64,000 nucleotides of DNA from a virus (taxonomy: Duplodnaviria > Heunggongvirae > Uroviricota > Caudoviricetes): IMG/VR virus record IMGVR_UViG_2706794662_000007, one strand, 5' to 3'. This document shows, piece by piece, positions 17,733 to 64,000 of this stretch (position 1 is the first letter of the stretch; the number at the start of each line of letters is the position of its first letter). A program made the position numbers and the translations under genes. The notes beneath the pieces were generated by a model. That model was not told the DNA's origin, did no database searches, and saw only the letters and a program-made list of their open reading frames with translations.

Positions 17733-18165
17733 AATGGATCACACCGTCGGCAAAATAATTCCGACGCGCATTACAGGCGTCATAACGTTTTGTGCAGTAA
17801 TCCGCACCAGACATAGACGTCTGCTGGTTATTTTTGTCGAAATATGGACCGGTATAGCCGCATTCTGGCCCTCGGTATTTCCACGGGCAGGTGTTTTTAA
17901 TGATCTGACGATACGGCAGTTGTACCCCCATCAAATCGAACACACTGGACAATTCAAACTCGACAACCTGATGAGTTTCGAGAGTTTTCTGTTCGATAAA
18001 CCACATTTCATCCGGGAAATGTTGGTTTGGATCTGCTGTTGGGTTGCCGTCTTTAAAATTAACGGCATCGAGGAAGCGAGCCAGCGTCATCTTGCGAATA
18101 ATGCGGCAGCCAACAAGATCGTCGTTCGCCTGAACTTCCGCAGAGACGGTTCCGGCAAAGTTCGN
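17698..18165 (-). CDS. minor tail protein L-like (5' part lost in N-run)
   Basis: C-terminal Cys cluster CPWKYRGPECGYTG...C..RYDAC; N-terminus masked. Confidence 0.65.
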   Translation of the reverse strand, partial: XNFAGTVSAEVQANDDLVGCRIIRKMTLARFLDAVNFKDGNPTADPNQHFPDEMWFIEQKTLETHQVVEFELSSVFDLMGVQLPYRQIIKNTCPWKYRGPECGYTGPYFDKNNQQTSMSGADYCTKRYDACNARRNYFADGVIHFGGFIGATRYG

Positions 18166-18414
18166 NNNNNNNNNNNNNNNNNNNNNNNNNNNNNNNNNNN
18201 NNNNNNNNNNNNNNNNNNNNNNNNNNNNNNNNNNNNNNNNNNNNNNNNNNNNNNNNNNNNNNNNNNNNNNNNNNNNNNNNNNNNNNNNNNNNNNNNNNNN
18301 NNNNNNNNNNNNNNNNNNNNNNNNNNNNNNNNNNNNNNNNNNNNNNNNNNNNNNNNNNNNNNNNNNNNNNNNNNNNNNNNNNNNNNNNNNNNNNNNNNNN
18401 NNNNNNNNNNNNNN
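18166..18414. other. run of 249 N (unresolved or masked bases)
   Basis: literal n characters. Confidence 1.
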
Positions 18415-41579: not shown

Positions 41580-41843
41580 NNNNNNNNNNNNNNNNNNNNN
41601 NNNNNNNNNNNNNNNNNNNNNNNNNNNNNNNNNNNNNNNNNNNNNNNNNNNNNNNNNNNNNNNNNNNNNNNNNNNNNNNNNNNNNNNNNNNNNNNNNNNN
41701 NNNNNNNNNNNNNNNNNNNNNNNNNNNNNNNNNNNNNNNNNNNNNNNNNNNNNNNNNNNNNNNNNNNNNNNNNNNNNNNNNNNNNNNNNNNNNNNNNNNN
41801 NNNNNNNNNNNNNNNNNNNNNNNNNNNNNNNNNNNNNNNNNNN
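41580..41843. other. run of 264 N
   Basis: literal n characters. Confidence 1.
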
Positions 41844-47095: not shown

Positions 47096-49034
47096 TTACT
47101 TAACCTGGTGGCCAGGTTTAGCACCAGCATCCGGGCTTAACAGGAAGATATCTTTCCCGCCAGGACCGGCAGCCATCACCATGCCTTCAGAGATACCGAA
47201 GCGCATTTTACGTGGTGCCAGGTTAGCCACCATAATGGTGTGACGACCAATCAGTGCCTGTGGATCTGGATAAGCGGAACGGATGCCTGAGAAGACATTA
47301 CGCTTTTCACCACCGAGATCCAGCGTCAGGCGAAGCAGTTTGTCAGAACCTTCGACAAACTCCGCGTTTTCAATCAGCGCCACACGCAGGTCAACTTTGG
47401 CGAAGTCGTCAAAGGTGATGGTTTCCTGAATCGGTTCGTCAGCCAGTGGGCCAGTTACCGGTGCAGCTGTGGCTTTCACTTCTTCTTTGGATGCTTCCAC
47501 CAGTGCTTCCACCTGTTTCATATCGATACGGTTATACAGTGCCTTGAACGGATTCACTTTATGGCCCAGAAGCGGTTGCTGGATACCATCCCAGGTCAGT
47601 TCTGTATTCAGGAATGCTTCTGCACGTTCAGTCAGTTTCGGCAGTACCGGTTTCAGGTACGTCATCAGCACGCGGAACAGGTTAATGCCCATAGAGCAAA
47701 TCGCCTGCAGATCTGCATCGCGACCTTCCTGCTTCGCCACCACCCACGGAGCCTGTTCATCGACATAGCGATTAGCCAGGTCAGCCAATGCCATGATTTC
47801 ACGGATAGCTTTACCAAATTCGCGGCTTTCCCATGCTTCGCCAATCACTTCAGCGGCATCAGTAAAGGTTTTGTACAGTTGCGGGTCAGCCAGTTCGCTT
47901 GTCAGCACGCCGTCAAAACGCTTGTTGATAAAGCCTGCATTACGGGAGGCCAGGTTAACCACTTTGTTCACGATATCGGCATTCACGCGCTGAACGAAAT
48001 CTTCCAGGTTGAGATCGATATCATCAATGCGCGAAGAGAGTTTCGCAGTGTAGTAGTAACGCAGGCTGTCAGCGTCAAAATGATTCAGCCAGGTGCTGGC
48101 TTTAATAAAGGTGCCGCGAGACTTGGACATCTTCGCGCCGTTCACCGTCACATAGCCGTGAACAAACAGGTTGGTCGGCTTGCGGAAGTTGCTGCCTTCC
48201 AGCATGGCAGGCCAGAACAGACTGTGGAAGTAAACGATATCTTTGCCGATGAAGTGGTACAGCTCGGCGGTGGAGTCTTTCTTCCAGTATTCGTCGAAGC
48301 TTACGCTGTCGCCGCGCTTGTCGCACAGATTCTTGAAAGAACCCATGTAGCCAATCGGCGCGTCCAGCCAGACGTAGAAATATTTGCCCGGCGCGTTCGN
48401 NNNNNNNNNNNNNNNNNNNNNNNNNNNNNNNNNNNNNNNNNNNNNNNNNNNNNNNNNNNNNNNNNNNNNNNNNNNNNNNNNNNNNNNNNNNNNNNNNNNN
48501 NNNNNNNNNNNNNNNNNNNNNNNNNNNNNNNNNNNNNNNNNNNNNNNNNNNNNNNNNNNNNNNNNNNNNNNNNNNNNNNNNNNNNNNNNNNNNNNNNNNN
48601 NNNNNNNNNNNNNNNNNNNNNNNNNNNNNNNNNNNNNNNNNNNNNNNNNNNNNNNNNNNNNNNNNNNNNNNNNNNNNNNNNNNNNNNNNNNNNNNNNNNN
48701 NNNNNNNNNNNNNNNNNNNNNNNNNNNNCTCTTCGCTGTGCGTCGAGTGATAGTTGTCATAGCTGATGTTAAAGCCTGCGAAATCAGTCTGATGTTCCTG
48801 ACTCATTTCGCCAATCATCTGTTCCGGTGTGATACCAAGCTGCTGTGCTTTCAGCATGATTGGCGTACCGTGGGCATCGTCGGCACAGATGAAATTAACC
48901 TCGTGGCCGCGCATTCGCTGGTAACGAACCCAGACATCAGCCTGGATGTGCTCCAGCATATGGCCGAGGTGGATTGAGCCGTTAGCGTACGGCAGCGCGC
49001 ACGTCACCAGAATTTTCTTCGCGACTTGGGTCAT
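47096..49034 (-). CDS. metG: methionine--tRNA ligase (interrupted by N-run; frame differs on the two sides of the mask)
   Basis: N-terminus [29 protein letters not shown] and C-terminus ...[24 protein letters not shown] recognised as enterobacterial MetRS. Confidence 0.9.
48390..48728. other. run of 339 N inside metG
   Basis: literal n characters. Confidence 1.
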
Positions 49035-50904: not shown

Positions 50905-51423
50905 CTAAAAATCAAANNNNNNNNNNNNNNNNNNNNNNNNNNNNNNNNNNNNNNNNNNNNNNNNNNNNNNNNNNNNNNNNNNNNNNNNNNNNNNNNNNNN
51001 NNNNNNNNNNNNNNNNNNNNNNNNNNNNNNNNNNNNNNNNNNNNNNNNNNNNNNNNNNNNNNNNNNNNNNNNNNNNNNNNNNNNNNNNNNNNNNNNNNNN
51101 NNNNNNNNNNNNNNNNNNNNNNNNNNNNNNNNNNNNNNNNNNNNNNNNNNNNNNNNNNNNNNNNNNNNNTTTAAAGGAAGATAGGTTCCCCATAGTAGCT
51201 GTCTGCCGTGCGCTCGTGTGAAATACCGGGCCATCTTCGGATTGCTATGCTGCTTAGGAGCGCCTGGTCTGTATGTCTGATACCCGGCCAACATCCCATC
51301 AAACCTGTATAGAGGGAATGTAACAACTCCTTCGCTTTCATCGATCCACTGTCTATATGGATGCACATCATAGCGGTAGTTACGAGTTAGCAAATGAGCT
51401 TCCAGCTTTCCAAATTTAGTCAT
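50905..51423 (-). CDS. hypothetical protein interrupted by N-run
   Basis: N-terminal part MTKFGKLEAHLLTRNYRYDVHPYRQWIDESEG... visible; start at internal Met. Confidence 0.4.
   Translation of the reverse strand: MTKFGKLEAHLLTRNYRYDVHPYRQWIDESEGVVTFPLYRFDGMLAGYQTYRPGAPKQHSNPKMARYFTRAHGRQLLWGTYLPLXXXXXXXXXXXXXXXXXXXXXXXXXXXXXXXXXXXXXXXXXXXXXXXXXXXXXXXXXXXXXXXXXXXXXXXXXXXXXXXXXXXXXFDF
50917..51169. other. run of 253 N
   Basis: literal n characters. Confidence 1.
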
Positions 51424-53489: not shown

Positions 53490-53739
53490 NNNNNNNNNNN
53501 NNNNNNNNNNNNNNNNNNNNNNNNNNNNNNNNNNNNNNNNNNNNNNNNNNNNNNNNNNNNNNNNNNNNNNNNNNNNNNNNNNNNNNNNNNNNNNNNNNNN
53601 NNNNNNNNNNNNNNNNNNNNNNNNNNNNNNNNNNNNNNNNNNNNNNNNNNNNNNNNNNNNNNNNNNNNNNNNNNNNNNNNNNNNNNNNNNNNNNNNNNNN
53701 NNNNNNNNNNNNNNNNNNNNNNNNNNNNNNNNNNNNNNN
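53490..53739. other. run of 250 N
   Basis: literal n characters. Confidence 1.
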
Positions 53740-57187: not shown

Positions 57188-58892
57188 TCATTTAACGCGT
57201 TTGAAAACGTATACGCTGACTGTGATCCCTGTGTCTTCAAACTCGTTGGTAAACGACTTCCCTCTGGCATAAACGTAATTATCCATCGTCATCCAGTCCA
57301 GTATTGGCGCNNNNNNNNNNNNNNNNNNNNNNNNNNNNNNNNNNNNNNNNNNNNNNNNNNNNNNNNNNNNNNNNNNNNNNNNNNNNNNNNNNNNNNNNNN
57401 NNNNNNNNNNNNNNNNNNNNNNNNNNNNNNNNNNNNNNNNNNNNNNNNNNNNNNNNNNNNNNNNNNNNNNNNNNNNNNNNNNNNNNNNNNNNNNNNNNNN
57501 NNNNNNNNNNNNNNNNNNNNNNNNNNNNNNNNNNNNNNNNNNNNNNNNNNNNNNNNNNNNNNNNNCCAGATCGGCGTTAATATAGGCCAGAAGATCCCCA
57601 CGTCCGGCTTGAGGCTCCAACAGCTTCTCACCAGGCTTCAATTCAGTGGCTCTGGCAACGTACTCAGCAATCAAGCGTGGGGTAGGGTAGAACTGGTGTG
57701 ATTTTGTATCCGGTATTAAACCGGTAGCCACAATCGTATTTAGCGTATGGCCGATCTCATACGGGAACTGCCAGTGCTTTTTCTCCTGCACGCCGCCAAT
57801 GAAGCTCAGTGTGCGCTCAAGCTCTTCCACCTGCGACTTCTGGAGAGCTGAATCAGAGAAGTACCATACGCCTTTGTCTTTGCTCAATCGCCCGTCACGA
57901 AGCGCAGTGCGAACCGGCACGGAGATCGTCTTCTGGATTAACCCGAACTGCTTTGGTGCCCGTGTTTTTGGCGCAGTTCGGCATGGCGCGGGGATTGCAG
58001 CAGGCATACTGTAAGCCAGCACCTCATTCAACTTCCAGGCCACGTCAGGATGTATTTCAAAGTGAACGTTGCCGTTCTTGAACATCTTCACGCGCATCAG
58101 ATTTCCATCGACGTTCATCCAGTCACCGGTCTGGCAGTCGTTTGCCCGATACGCAGCTGATAGCACCTCAGCAGTGCGGTTGATGGTAATAAATTCTTTG
58201 TGCGCGAAGAAATGAAGCAAGACACGCAGATCGTCGATGTAGTCCTCTTTGCGATAGTTCACGCTAACGCTGTCACGCCAGAAATCAGAAATGCAGTCAG
58301 CGATTATCAGACGCTCGCTGAAACCGTTTGTCTTATTTGTCTTGTGCGCAGGACTCAGCGCCTTAAACAAGCCATACACGCGCTCAGAGAGATATTTGTG
58401 CCTGTCATTCAGCAAATTAAGCATCGTTGGTATGACCGTTTCTGCTTTGAACTCCGGTACACCAACGAACTCTTTAACCTTCATCTGATAGCCGGTTCTG
58501 TCAGTTTTGATGACTTCCTGCTTGCCCTCGATAAATAGCTCACGCCACTCGTCGCGACGGGAAGCTGGCATGATCAGCAGAACGTTAGTCATATCCGTAA
58601 CCTTCCTCCAGTACTCGGCCCAAATATTCTGTTTCACCCATTCCAGATCGACGTTATCCAGCCAGACTCGATTCAAACGTGAGCGATCTTCATCTGGTCG
58701 GTGGTTTAGTCGAAGCAGGCGATTAATCATGTTGTGGCGTTCATCGCCATAAACGAAGTCGTGTACCTGATACATGAAGGAGATCTCTTTCTCGCACTCG
58801 GCCACAATTTCGTGGATGACGTTCATTTCCTGTCGATAGTCGATAGCAGTGTTTGAGCTGGCATCGCCCATGATGGAAAGGGCTGTATTCAT
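57188..58892 (-). CDS. gamma-class N6-adenine DNA methyltransferase-like protein with ~390-aa N-terminal extension (interrupted by N-run; C-terminal frame uncertain)
   Basis: motif X-like QFYPTPR and motif I-like LEPQAGRGDL just before mask. Confidence 0.5.
57311..57565. other. run of 255 N
   Basis: literal n characters. Confidence 1.
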
Positions 58893-58995
58893 AATTGCAC
58901 CATTAAGAAATGATTTGTTTAATGATGCAATTATTTCAAAAATAAAAAGGTGCTAAATAGAAATTAACAGGCAATACTTAAAATAAAGGCATTGA

Positions 58996-59670
58996 CTAAT
59001 CATACTTGGATGTATTTATAACCAGGACTTTATTTGTATATAGTTTTTTTACATTCCATGTAACATTACTTGAATACCATTCACCATTATATATTTGGTT
59101 TCCCGTTGCGCCTGTCATTGTTACGTATACAGGTCTGTCGTAAGGTGTTCGTCTATAGTTATATACTCCAACCATTGCAGGCATTATCGCACACGGGTAT
59201 CCCATATTTATGGTAAATTGAGGATTTGTAATAGTGATAATCTCTGCATCAAGGGGCATCATCTCACCGTGATATACCATTTTACCTGCGCTATTATACA
59301 TGGCAATACCATATCCTGAATGTGGTAACACCATATCAGAAAAAGCATAAACTGTTATCGTTCCGGGGTTTCCTCCAACCTGATTCAGTCTGAGAACATT
59401 ATACCCATCTCTAAATTCATGAACGAACATCATATTCGCCTTATTACTGCTTTTTATAAAGAAAAAACATGATTTGTTCGACGGTATTGAAGTCTTAAAA
59501 ACAGAACCTTTAGACGTGGACATTGTCCCCCTATTAATCAAATTTTGCGGTGTAAATTCTGGACTCATCCACACATTACCATTTGACTGAGTAATTGACA
59601 TCCCGAACATTATTGTTATCCCCAATATGTATATATATAAGATCCAAGTCCCTTGTATAAATTTGACCAA
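58996..59670 (-). CDS. hypothetical protein in strongly AT-rich island, N-terminal TM segment
   Basis: ORF track; overlaps 59616..59897 in another frame. Confidence 0.35.
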   Translation of the reverse strand: MVKFIQGTWILYIYILGITIMFGMSITQSNGNVWMSPEFTPQNLINRGTMSTSKGSVFKTSIPSNKSCFFFIKSSNKANMMFVHEFRDGYNVLRLNQVGGNPGTITVYAFSDMVLPHSGYGIAMYNSAGKMVYHGEMMPLDAEIITITNPQFTINMGYPCAIMPAMVGVYNYRRTPYDRPVYVTMTGATGNQIYNGEWYSSNVTWNVKKLYTNKVLVINTSKYD

Positions 59671-59897
59671 CTTACTGTATTGCCGTTAATAGTGATAGTT
59701 GGTGTAGGTATATTTACATGGTTATCGTTATTTAAAGGCATCAATGAGCACACAGCATGTAATGATTTGCCAGGTGGTGGATTTGGGTAAGTCTTAGAGC
59801 CTGACGTGGTTGTAAATCGATCAAGAAAAAAAATAGGAGTAAGGAAGCCGGTAACGTTAACTCCCTTATTATTGTAGATCCCTGTACCGTATGCCAT
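59616..59897 (-). CDS. hypothetical ORF, possibly 5' part of a frameshifted gene continuing into 58996..59670
   Basis: 55-nt overlap in different frames. Confidence 0.3.
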   Translation of the reverse strand: MAYGTGIYNNKGVNVTGFLTPIFFLDRFTTTSGSKTYPNPPPGKSLHAVCSLMPLNNDNHVNIPTPTITINGNTVSWSNLYKGLGSYIYTYWG

Positions 59898-59951
59898 TTT
59901 TCATCCTTGTTTTTATCAACATAATATGGCCGATCATGCGGCCATATCAGA

Positions 59952-60521
59952 TCAATTAGAGCTTTGAAAGGCTTTGTGTGGCTGTGTTGCGAGGTTATGT
60001 CGATGGCTTAACTCACGCATCATGTCTTCAAGGCGACTCTTTGTGTCGTCGAGTTGGTCAGCCATTGCTCCTAAAAGCTGACGAACTACCATCGGATCGT
60101 CGCTGTTTAGTGATGGCATTTTATAACCCGCCTGAGAAGACATCAGATTGAATGCTGACATCAACATCGTTAGAGAGGATTTAAGCCCGGCAATTTCACG
60201 ATCTTTGCTGGCAATAATCGTCTCACTTTTGTTACTGTCATGAGTTCCTTGAGTCTCGATCACCATATCCAAAGTCTCTTGCAACTTATCAGCTCTCTGT
60301 TTTTCAGCAAGATAATGAACACCGAAATGATGTGCTAAAGCTACAACCTGAGTTGGCTCTTCAAAGGTGGACTCAAAATTAAGTGCTGTAACCACTCTCT
60401 CAAAAATGGAAACGTCTTCTATTCCTCGAAGAATGGCTAACATTTTGACAAGTTCATTAGCATCCATTTCTTCGAATAGGGCGTTTTGTTCATCAGCTAT
60501 TGCTTTGCATTTCTCGCACAT
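59952..60521 (-). CDS. hypothetical protein, 189 aa
   Basis: ORF track; family-1 motif 17 nt upstream. Confidence 0.45.
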   Translation of the reverse strand: MCEKCKAIADEQNALFEEMDANELVKMLAILRGIEDVSIFERVVTALNFESTFEEPTQVVALAHHFGVHYLAEKQRADKLQETLDMVIETQGTHDSNKSETIIASKDREIAGLKSSLTMLMSAFNLMSSQAGYKMPSLNSDDPMVVRQLLGAMADQLDDTKSRLEDMMRELSHRHNLATQPHKAFQSSN

Positions 60522-63747: not shown

Positions 63748-63776
63748 AATTACAGACGCCAGAACAAACTAAGCAG

Positions 63777-64000
63777 CCTTCTTTGATGGTCTTTTTTTCC
63801 TGATCACATTCGCAGGATCATACCCTCCCAGACTTTTCATGACGTCCAAAGGGATCTTGCTTATAGAGTGCCCAGCGTCCTGACAGAATCCTCGAAAAAC
63901 AACGAGCATACTGCCACCGGGGTTGATGTTTACTTCTACCTGACCCAAATTGACGTCAGGCTCGACAAACGCTACGCGGCCACCAGACAGAATAATCGTC
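63777..64000 (-). CDS. partial ORF entering from beyond window end
   Basis: own translation ...VEVNINPGGSMLVVFRGFCQDAGHSISKIPLDVMKSLGGYDPANVIRKKRPSKKAA; stop at 63777. Confidence 0.3.

What the first reader, a model, noticed from the sequence alone, without database searches (positions are those of the whole stretch)
57188..58892. Adenine MTase-like protein with large N-terminal extension, catalytic region masked
Motifs resembling gamma-class N6-adenine methyltransferase motif X (QFYPTPR) and motif I (LEPQAGRGDL) appear about 390 aa into the protein, immediately before an N-run that would hold the NPPY/DPPY motif. The N-terminal half has no obvious motif. This could be an orphan methyltransferase for anti-restriction or a fused modification enzyme.
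Basis: partly seen in the sequence, partly recalled or inferred. Interest (0 to 1): 0.5.

Follow-up and report, generated by a model that had tools for sequence, protein, structure and literature searches.

The report
Phage-plasmid orphan adenine methyltransferase (DUF4942 family)
This is an intact, already catalogued gene of an SSU5-like phage-plasmid that most likely methylates adenines in the element's own DNA to escape host restriction; its large N-terminal part is a widespread domain of unknown function, and nobody has tested the protein.

Summary
A minus-strand gene runs from 58892 to 57188. Motif X (QFYPTP, aa 400-405) and motif I (LEPQAGRGDL, aa 425-434) sit just before the N-run at 57311-57565.

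The window is an E. coli SSU5/pHCM2-like phage-plasmid. In CP054387 both visible parts of the protein are 100% identical to the window. There the masked stretch is 236 bp, not 255, so N-run lengths are not faithful. It encodes KIVMNPPYSLG, so the catalytic NPPY is present. The real protein is 561 aa.

The last ~165 aa form a complete but minimal class I methyltransferase. It is closest to EcoKI/TaqI-type N6-adenine DNA methylases and has no C-terminal target-recognition domain.

The first ~390 aa contain Pfam DUF4942. This part is as conserved as the catalytic domain and has an invariant LSxxHxTN motif. It matches no solved or viral predicted structure.

The fused architecture is the norm. It occurs in 609 50%-identity cluster representatives, 40 phage records, 2,535 plasmids (including IncHI) and 251 of 5,426 complete E. 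coli genomes. It always sits on mobile elements, has no conserved nuclease partner, and usually lies near another DNA methylase.

Best reading: an orphan self-protective DNA adenine methylase. It is ordinary and already annotated, but biochemically uncharacterised.

The parts
57188..58892 (-). Whole gene for the DUF4942-methyltransferase. It is 561 aa in unmasked relatives. In the window it is interrupted by the N-run, whose length is not faithful.
   Evidence: annotated CDS of 1686 bp in PhiR41_1, SSU5 (SSU5_095) and Cyrano
58626..58892 (-). aa 1-89. Poorly conserved helical N-terminus, with a mean of 13% identity across the family.
57933..58625 (-). aa 90-320. Conserved core of the N-terminal module. 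The Pfam DUF4942 match covers aa 140-295 (58008-58475). The conserved blocks are aa 91-120, 166-195 and 256-300.
58335..58358 (-). LSPAHKTN (aa 179-186), the family signature LSxxHxTN. L179, S180, H183, T185 and N186 are 100% conserved in 148 diverse members.
57708..57932 (-). aa 321-395. Small alpha/beta linker sub-domain in front of the catalytic domain. It contains the most variable stretch (aa 331-360) and the insertion hot spot at aa 345. From about aa 328 it is shared, together with the methyltransferase domain, with PHROG 9133.
57678..57695 (-). Motif X, QFYPTP (aa 400-405). This is the 'TP' motif of EcoKI/TaqI-type adenine methylases.
   Evidence: motif definition from PMC5512222
57591..57620 (-). 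Motif I, LEPQAGRGDL (aa 425-434), the SAM-binding loop ExxAGxG.
57311..57565 (.). Masked stretch of 255 N, which is 236 bp in the identical relative. It encodes aa 443-521, including E449 (motif II), D470-F471 (motif III), NPPY 489-492 (motif IV) and H500.
57188..57310 (-). aa 522-561 plus the stop codon. These are the last two strands of the methyltransferase fold and include the conserved F545. No target-recognition domain follows.

Best explanation
The gene encodes a stand-alone ('orphan') SAM-dependent N6-adenine DNA methyltransferase of an SSU5-like phage-plasmid. The C-terminal ~165 aa form a minimal Rossmann-type catalytic domain of the EcoKI/TaqI (gamma) type. It binds SAM through motifs I-III and takes a flipped adenine into the NPPY pocket. 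That domain has no recognition domain of its own, so the conserved ~390-aa DUF4942 module fused in front of it most likely binds the DNA and positions the substrate. The enzyme would be made from the accessory or early gene block of the element. It would methylate the element's own DNA, so that after transfer to a new host the DNA is partly or wholly refractory to adenine-directed restriction enzymes. Shown: the gene, its motifs, its fold class, its distribution and its lack of a conserved nuclease partner. Inferred: DNA as the substrate, the DNA-binding role of the N-terminal module, and the protective function.
For: All catalytic motifs are present, in gamma order: QFYPTP, ExxAGxG, E449, D470-F471 and NPPY. 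Most are 97-100% conserved in 148 diverse members, and the QFYPTP positions scored are 92-99% conserved. The AlphaFold model (pLDDT 82.8) gives a seven-stranded class I methyltransferase for aa ~396-561. Foldseek matches that part only, including HsdM 2okc, M.TaqI 1aqj, CamA, M.BseCI and PacII. A profile search of PDB sequences ranks HsdM EcoR124II (6.6e-4) and M.TaqI (7.7e-4) first. Pfam N6_Mtase is hit by 25 of 30 members, best 8e-6. PADLOC hits are MADS mad2 at 1e-15 and type II MTase at 2e-10. PHROG 6263 is 'DNA methyltransferase'. The module is always fused: most of the 150 listed hits, out of 609 N-terminal-module representatives, are 510-580 aa. In phages, 40 records carry the N-terminal module, the same number as carry a near-full-length (>=80%) match to the methyltransferase domain. 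Every context is a mobile element, with no conserved nuclease neighbour. Another DNA methylase lies within about 5 kb in the window and its close relatives PhiR41_1, SSU5 and Cyrano (Dam PF05869), in two prophages, in phiPSA1 and in IncHI plasmids. Orphan methylases protecting phages and plasmids are an established theme (PMC11541004; PMC5512222).
Confidence: 0.6

Rival explanations
1. It is a low-specificity or non-specific (possibly single-strand- or replication-coupled) DNA adenine methylase. The conserved DUF4942 module would bind DNA structure rather than a sequence, giving broad protection against many restriction systems at once, as M.EcoGII or the plasmid enzyme M.EcoGIX do.
For: The N-terminal module shows no hypervariable recognition-domain-sized segment. 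Only aa 331-360 and 1-90 vary. The same module is kept from Variovorax and Pseudomonas phages to enterobacterial phage-plasmids and IncHI plasmids. The catalytic domain is closest to the methylase domains of giant polyvalent phage proteins, PHROGs of 1,200-3,900 aa at 1e-14 to 1e-19. Those domains are proposed to methylate incoming DNA (PMC5512222).
Against: Strong conservation fits one shared specific target equally well, as in Dam orthologues. Nothing here measures specificity. The element already carries a Dam-family methylase.
Confidence: 0.2
2. It is not a DNA methylase. It would be an RNA (rRNA/tRNA m6A or m2G) or protein (HemK-like glutamine) methyltransferase that the element uses to modify the host translation apparatus.
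For: NPP(Y/F) is shared with m2G RNA and glutamine methylases (established knowledge). Pfam MTS is hit by 20 of 30 members at 5e-7 and RrnaAD by 7 of 30. NCBIfam's best weak hits are Erm and KsgA. ErmAM scores 1.9e-3 in the PDB search. Foldseek also lists Trm11/TrmN, PmtA and RlmL.
Against: The FYPTP helix-cap motif is characteristic of EcoKI/TaqI-type DNA adenine methylases (PMC5512222) and is highly conserved here (92-99% at the positions scored). The strongest model hits are DNA methylase models. The gene repeatedly sits beside bona fide DNA methylase genes on mobile elements.
Confidence: 0.1
3. It is a bifunctional enzyme. The DUF4942 module would be a second catalytic domain, either a nuclease as in type IIG/IIL restriction-modification fusions or another DNA-modifying activity, so the protein would be a single-chain defence or exclusion system rather than an orphan methylase.
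For: Invariant polar residues cluster in the module: H183, T185, N186, D221, R223, D262, H277 and N289. Some phage records call homologues 'RE endonuclease'.
Confidence: 0.07

Closest known systems
Salmonella phage SSU5 gene SSU5_095 (YP_006906727, 'DNA methyltransferase') and its copies in E. coli phage-plasmids (CMS-2020a CP054387, PhiR41_1, Cyrano CYRAN_90, O104:H4 FDAARGOS_348 plasmid)
   Same: It is the same gene: 83-100% nucleotide identity in the phage records, 91% to SSU5. It has the same 561-aa length, the same position in the accessory block and the same motifs.
   Different: Nothing material. The window copy is identical to CP054387 in every visible residue.
EcoKI/TaqI-like (gamma-class) N6-adenine DNA methyltransferases (M.TaqI, type I HsdM)
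   Same: Motif order X-I-II-III-IV, the TP helix cap, ExxAGxG, NPPY and a class I Rossmann fold. These are the best PDB matches by sequence profile and appear among the fold matches.
   Different: There is no C-terminal recognition domain (M.TaqI). There is no HsdM N-terminal or C-terminal region and no hsdS/hsdR partner. Similarity is weak (E about 1e-3). The ~390-aa N-terminal module is unrelated to anything in those enzymes.
DarB-type methylase-helicase module of polyvalent phage and plasmid proteins (Iyer et al. 2017, PMC5512222)
   Same: The catalytic domain is of the same general type. It hits the methylase segments of giant phage protein families at 1e-14 to 1e-19 and N4-like 'PLxRFG' virion proteins. 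Both are proposed to act in anti-restriction.
   Different: There is no SF2/SNF2 helicase after the methylase, because the protein ends 70 aa after NPPY. No LPD36 GxGU motif was seen. It is a 561-aa soluble protein, not a giant virion-delivered one.
Other orphan methylases of mobile elements: T1-type Dam (PF05869) in the same element, M.EcoGII, and the ParB-fused single-strand methylase M.EcoGIX (Fomenkov 2020, cited in PMC11541004)
   Same: Each is a stand-alone methylase on a phage or plasmid with no nuclease partner and a presumed protective function.
   Different: They have different catalytic classes and different accessory domains (ParB versus DUF4942). For this family neither specificity nor protection has been measured.

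Membership tests
Pfam PF13708 (DUF4942) | Match to the family HMM above the gathering score (25 bits) | tested here: met
   72.3 bits, E 5.5e-20, aa 140-295, from the window's own sequence. All 30 aligned members match.
Gamma-class (EcoKI/TaqI-like) N6-adenine DNA methyltransferase | Catalytic motif IV (N/D)PP(Y/F) | tested here: met
   The motif is masked in the window. NPPY sits at aa 489-492 in the relative that is identical in all visible residues. N489 and P491 are 100% conserved and P490 97% conserved in 148 members.
Gamma-class (EcoKI/TaqI-like) N6-adenine DNA methyltransferase | Linear order X - I - II - III - IV, with the N-terminal helix capped by a TP motif | tested here: met
   QFYPTP 400-405, EPQAGRG 426-432, E449, D470-F471 and NPPY 489-492. 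The TP-motif definition is from PMC5512222.
Gamma-class (EcoKI/TaqI-like) N6-adenine DNA methyltransferase | Significant sequence match to the family model (Pfam N6_Mtase PF02384, cut-off 20.4 bits) | tested here: inconclusive
   This protein scores 13.8 bits, E 0.036. 25 of 30 relatives match at E <= 0.1, best 7.9e-6. The PDB profile search gives HsdM 6.6e-4 and M.TaqI 7.7e-4. The MTS and Erm models score similarly.
Gamma-class (EcoKI/TaqI-like) N6-adenine DNA methyltransferase | Target-recognition domain C-terminal to the catalytic domain (or a separate HsdS subunit) | tested here: not met
   The protein ends about 70 aa after NPPY, and those residues form strands 5-7 of the catalytic fold. 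No hsdS-like neighbour was found.
Gamma-class (EcoKI/TaqI-like) N6-adenine DNA methyltransferase | Transfers methyl to N6 of adenine in DNA | not testable with these tools
   This needs a methylome or an enzyme assay. No published data were found.
Orphan (solitary) methyltransferase of a mobile element | No cognate restriction endonuclease encoded beside it | tested here: met
   The neighbours in the window are Ead/Ea22-like, TerB-like, RNase H, moron membrane proteins and unknown phage proteins. No neighbour is conserved across eight contexts. Caveat: several neighbours have no known function.
DarB-type polyvalent methylase-helicase dyad | SF2/SNF2 helicase fused C-terminally and LPD36 fused N-terminally | tested here: not met
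   There is no sequence after the methylase domain and no helicase hit in Pfam. The region before the domain has a conserved xGGx, not GxGU.
Type IIG/IIL restriction-modification fusion | N-terminal PD-(D/E)XK nuclease plus C-terminal recognition domain | tested here: not met

The most novel reading that the evidence does not exclude
The DUF4942 module is a previously unrecognised nucleic-acid-handling domain with no known fold relative. It would give this very widespread mobile-element methylase family one shared, unusual substrate mode, for example sequence-independent, single-strand or replication-coupled adenine methylation. That would make it a broad-spectrum anti-restriction device common to phage-plasmids, temperate phages and IncHI resistance plasmids.
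Probability: 0.2. Interest if true: 0.55.

Novelty: already known. Interest (0 to 1): 0.25.

Why it matters
For this window it matters little. The gene is an intact, catalogued component of SSU5-like phage-plasmids, and the 'masked catalytic region' question is settled by identical public sequences.

The family is more interesting than the single gene. It sits on 2,535 PLSDB plasmids, 1,360 of them predicted conjugative, including IncHI resistance plasmids. It is also on about 4% of complete E. coli genomes and in temperate phages of several proteobacterial orders. Despite that, neither its target nor the role of its 390-aa conserved module has been measured.

If it is a broad-spectrum protective methylase, it would help explain how these elements cross restriction barriers. 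It would also add an unexplained 6mA signal to the methylomes of strains that carry them.

Tried and rejected
1. I first read the N-run as length-preserving. That gives a frameshifted C-terminus with stop codons. I rejected it because all five N-runs differ in length from the reference gaps.

3. I looked for a second Pfam, NCBIfam or PADLOC domain in the N-terminal part and found none.

4. I looked for a conserved partner gene (nuclease, specificity subunit or helicase) in eight contexts and found none.

5. I looked for experimental literature using DUF4942, SSU5, pHCM2, phage-plasmid methylome and IncHI methyltransferase. Only annotation tables came up.

6. Promoter and terminator scans around the gene were at chance level.

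7. I considered DarB-type, type I HsdM and type IIG membership. Each fails a defining feature (see the membership test).

Full report
**What is in the sequence**

A minus-strand ORF starts at ATG 58892 and stops at 57188-57190. It is interrupted by a run of 255 N at 57311-57565. Before the run the translation reads ...SHQFYPTPRLIAEYVARATELKPGEKLLEPQAGRGDLLAYINADL. QFYPTP is aa 400-405 (57678-57695) and LEPQAGRGDL is aa 425-434 (57591-57620).

Read literally, the frames on the two sides of the N-run do not join. This is an artefact. All five N-runs between 40 and 64 kb differ in length from the corresponding gaps in the near-identical record CP054387: 264/256, 329/424, 253/246, 250/241 and 255/236.

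**Recovering the masked part**

The window is an SSU5/pHCM2-like phage-plasmid of E. coli. Eleven phage records carry the gene at 83-100% identity, and CP054387 (Escherichia phage CMS-2020a) matches at 100%. Positions 40-64 kb of the window are collinear with that record at 99.1% identity.

In CP054387 the gap is 236 bp. That gives a 1686-bp gene of 561 aa, the length annotated in PhiR41_1, SSU5 (SSU5_095, 'DNA methyltransferase') and Cyrano ('DUF4942 domain-containing protein'). All 442 visible N-terminal residues and all 40 visible C-terminal residues are identical to the CP054387 protein.

The hidden segment reads EDVTCIEIAPLFADILRGKGYTNTICCDFIKWSEDNAGYQFDKIVMNPPYSLGRHREHTLAALGHLKVGGRLVAVLPGT. 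The catalytic NPPY is therefore present at aa 489-492.

**The catalytic domain**

In an alignment of 148 diverse family members, the following residues are 92-100% conserved: Q400, Y402, P403, T404, E426, P427, A429, G430, G432, E449, D470, F471, N489, P490, P491, H500 and F545. NPP(Y/F/W) occurs in 234 of 239 homologues of at least 480 aa.

The AlphaFold model (30-sequence alignment, pLDDT 82.8, pTM 0.69) shows a complete seven-stranded class I methyltransferase in aa ~396-561, with nothing after it. Foldseek against the PDB aligns only that ~170-residue part. The hits are many class I methyltransferases, among them type I HsdM (2okc), M.TaqI (1aqj), CamA, M.BseCI and PacII, but also RNA and lipid methylases.

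A family profile searched against PDB sequences ranks as follows:

| PDB match | E-value |
|---|---|
| HsdM of EcoR124II | 6.6e-4 |
| M.TaqI | 7.7e-4 |
| ErmAM | 1.9e-3 |
| PacII | 2.4e-3 |

Other model libraries give a similar picture:

- Pfam N6_Mtase is hit by 25 of 30 members (best 7.9e-6) and MTS by 20 of 30 (5.4e-7). For this protein both are below the curated cut-offs.
- PADLOC gives MADS mad2 at 1.1e-15 and type II MTase at 2.1e-10.
- PHROGs gives the full-length family 6263, 'DNA methyltransferase', at 2e-298. It also hits the methylase segments of very large phage protein families at 1e-14 to 1e-19.

The TP-capped helix followed by NPP(Y/F) is the signature that Iyer et al. give for EcoKI/TaqI-type adenine methylases (PMC5512222). 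On this basis the domain is a gamma-type amino-methyltransferase. DNA adenine is the most probable substrate, but this is not proven.

**The N-terminal module**

Pfam DUF4942 covers aa 140-295 (E 5.5e-20 from the window's own sequence). Conservation extends over aa 90-320. Three blocks (91-120, 166-195, 256-300) are as conserved as the catalytic motifs, and the LSxxHxTN motif at aa 179-186 is invariant. Mean identity across the family is 35% for aa 90-390 and 38% for the catalytic domain. The variable parts are aa 1-90 and aa 331-360.

A separate model of aa 1-389 (pLDDT 83.1) has no convincing relative:

- Foldseek against BFVD gives only two unnamed or uncharacterised proteins.

The fold and function of this module are unknown. 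Two readings fit the data. One is a substrate-binding module with a family-wide common target. The other, less likely, is a second active site.

**Distribution and context**

A search with the N-terminal 389 aa against 1.84 billion cluster representatives finds 609 proteins at E <= 1e-3. Most of the 150 listed are 510-580 aa, so the fusion is the normal architecture.

| Collection | Result |
|---|---|
| Phage records | 40 carry the N-terminal module, the same number as have a near-full-length match to the methyltransferase domain; about 190 others carry only a related methylase domain in other proteins |
| PLSDB plasmids | 2,535 carry a homologue; 1,360 are predicted conjugative, including IncHI1/IncHI2 plasmids at ~30% identity |
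| Complete E. coli genomes | 251 of 5,426 carry it, almost always on ~110-kb plasmids; PGAP names it 'DUF4942 domain-containing protein' |

In the window the gene lies in a long minus-strand block of accessory genes. The block includes Ead/Ea22-like, TerB/TciA-like, RNase H and moron membrane proteins. A T1-type Dam gene (PF05869) lies about 5 kb upstream.

Elsewhere the gene is found in these settings:

- Lambdoid prophage early-right operons, next to N6_N4 and C5 methylases.
- Beside a second methylase in phiPSA1.
- Dolphis-like phages.
- A type IV CRISPR-bearing element.
- IncHI plasmids, between a ParB-like gene plus dam on one side and an Ig-like protein gene on the other.

No nuclease, specificity subunit or helicase is conserved next to it.

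**Mechanism proposed**

I propose an orphan, self-protective DNA adenine methylase. The C-terminal domain does the chemistry. The DUF4942 module supplies DNA binding, because the catalytic domain lacks any recognition domain. The product is methylated element DNA that resists restriction in the next host. This matches the established role of orphan methylases in phages and in plasmid leading regions (PMC11541004; PMC11602122). Confidence is 0.6.

The rivals are:

- A non-specific or single-strand mode of the same function (0.2).
- An RNA or protein substrate (0.1).
- A bifunctional enzyme with a second catalytic domain (0.07).

**Comparison with known families**

The gene is the same as SSU5_095. 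It works like a gamma-class N6-adenine methylase and meets the motif criteria. It lacks the C-terminal recognition domain of M.TaqI and the partners of HsdM, and it lacks the helicase of DarB-type modules. I therefore file it under Pfam DUF4942 and 'putative orphan DNA methyltransferase', not under any of those specific systems.

**Novelty and verdict**

This is an ordinary finding, with interest 0.25. The residual interest lies in the family: it is very common on mobile elements, including resistance plasmids, and no experimental work on it turned up in six literature searches.

Noticed in passing
window 58186-58217 (inside the methyltransferase gene): This is an exact protospacer. The leader-proximal spacer of the type I-E CRISPR array of E. 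coli AST85 (NZ_AP043644.1, next to cas1e-cas2e) matches these 32 nt perfectly. In the window they are preceded by ATG, which from my own knowledge is a functional I-E PAM. Eight further chromosomal matches in complete E. coli genomes were not inspected.
   Followed up: partly
window 18165-18414, 41580-41843, 48400-48728, 50917-51169, 53490-53739, 57311-57565: There are six N-runs. The five that could be compared with CP054387 all differ in length from the real gap, by -95 to +19 bases. Reading frames across any N-run in this window therefore cannot be trusted.
   Followed up: yes
window ~63769-64000 (runs off the window end), minus strand: A second orphan methylase gene of the element lies here. 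It is a 197-aa T1-type Dam (Pfam PF05869, E 1.5e-37 in the PhiR41_1 copy), so the phage-plasmid carries two unrelated adenine methylases about 5 kb apart.
   Followed up: partly
window 58900-60000: An AT-rich stretch (36-38% GC against 48-54% in the methyltransferase gene) lies immediately upstream. It holds two moron-type genes: PHROG 425 'membrane associated protein' and PHROG 557 'outer membrane protein'. SSU5 carries different genes in this slot (a hypothetical protein and anti-repressor Ant), so this is a variable insertion point.
   Followed up: partly
L015 8944-10635 (IncHI2 plasmid pHXY0908) and L016 7893-9569 (IncHI1B plasmid): The IncHI plasmid homologues (~30% identity) keep LSxxHxTN and NPPF. 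In the IncHI2 copy, whose sequence I read, motif X is degenerate (QFYPSS) and so is the SAM-binding motif I (EPNIGHA instead of ExxAGxG). The canonical patterns are also absent from the IncHI1B copy. This branch may bind SAM differently or be inactive. The genes sit next to a plasmid dam gene and a ParB-like gene.
   Followed up: partly
window 40000-64000: The accessory region also encodes a methionyl-tRNA synthetase, a MinD/ParA-like ATPase and a LexA/UmuD-like S24 peptidase with an error-prone repair protein, going by the annotation of collinear relatives. These were not examined further.
   Followed up: no
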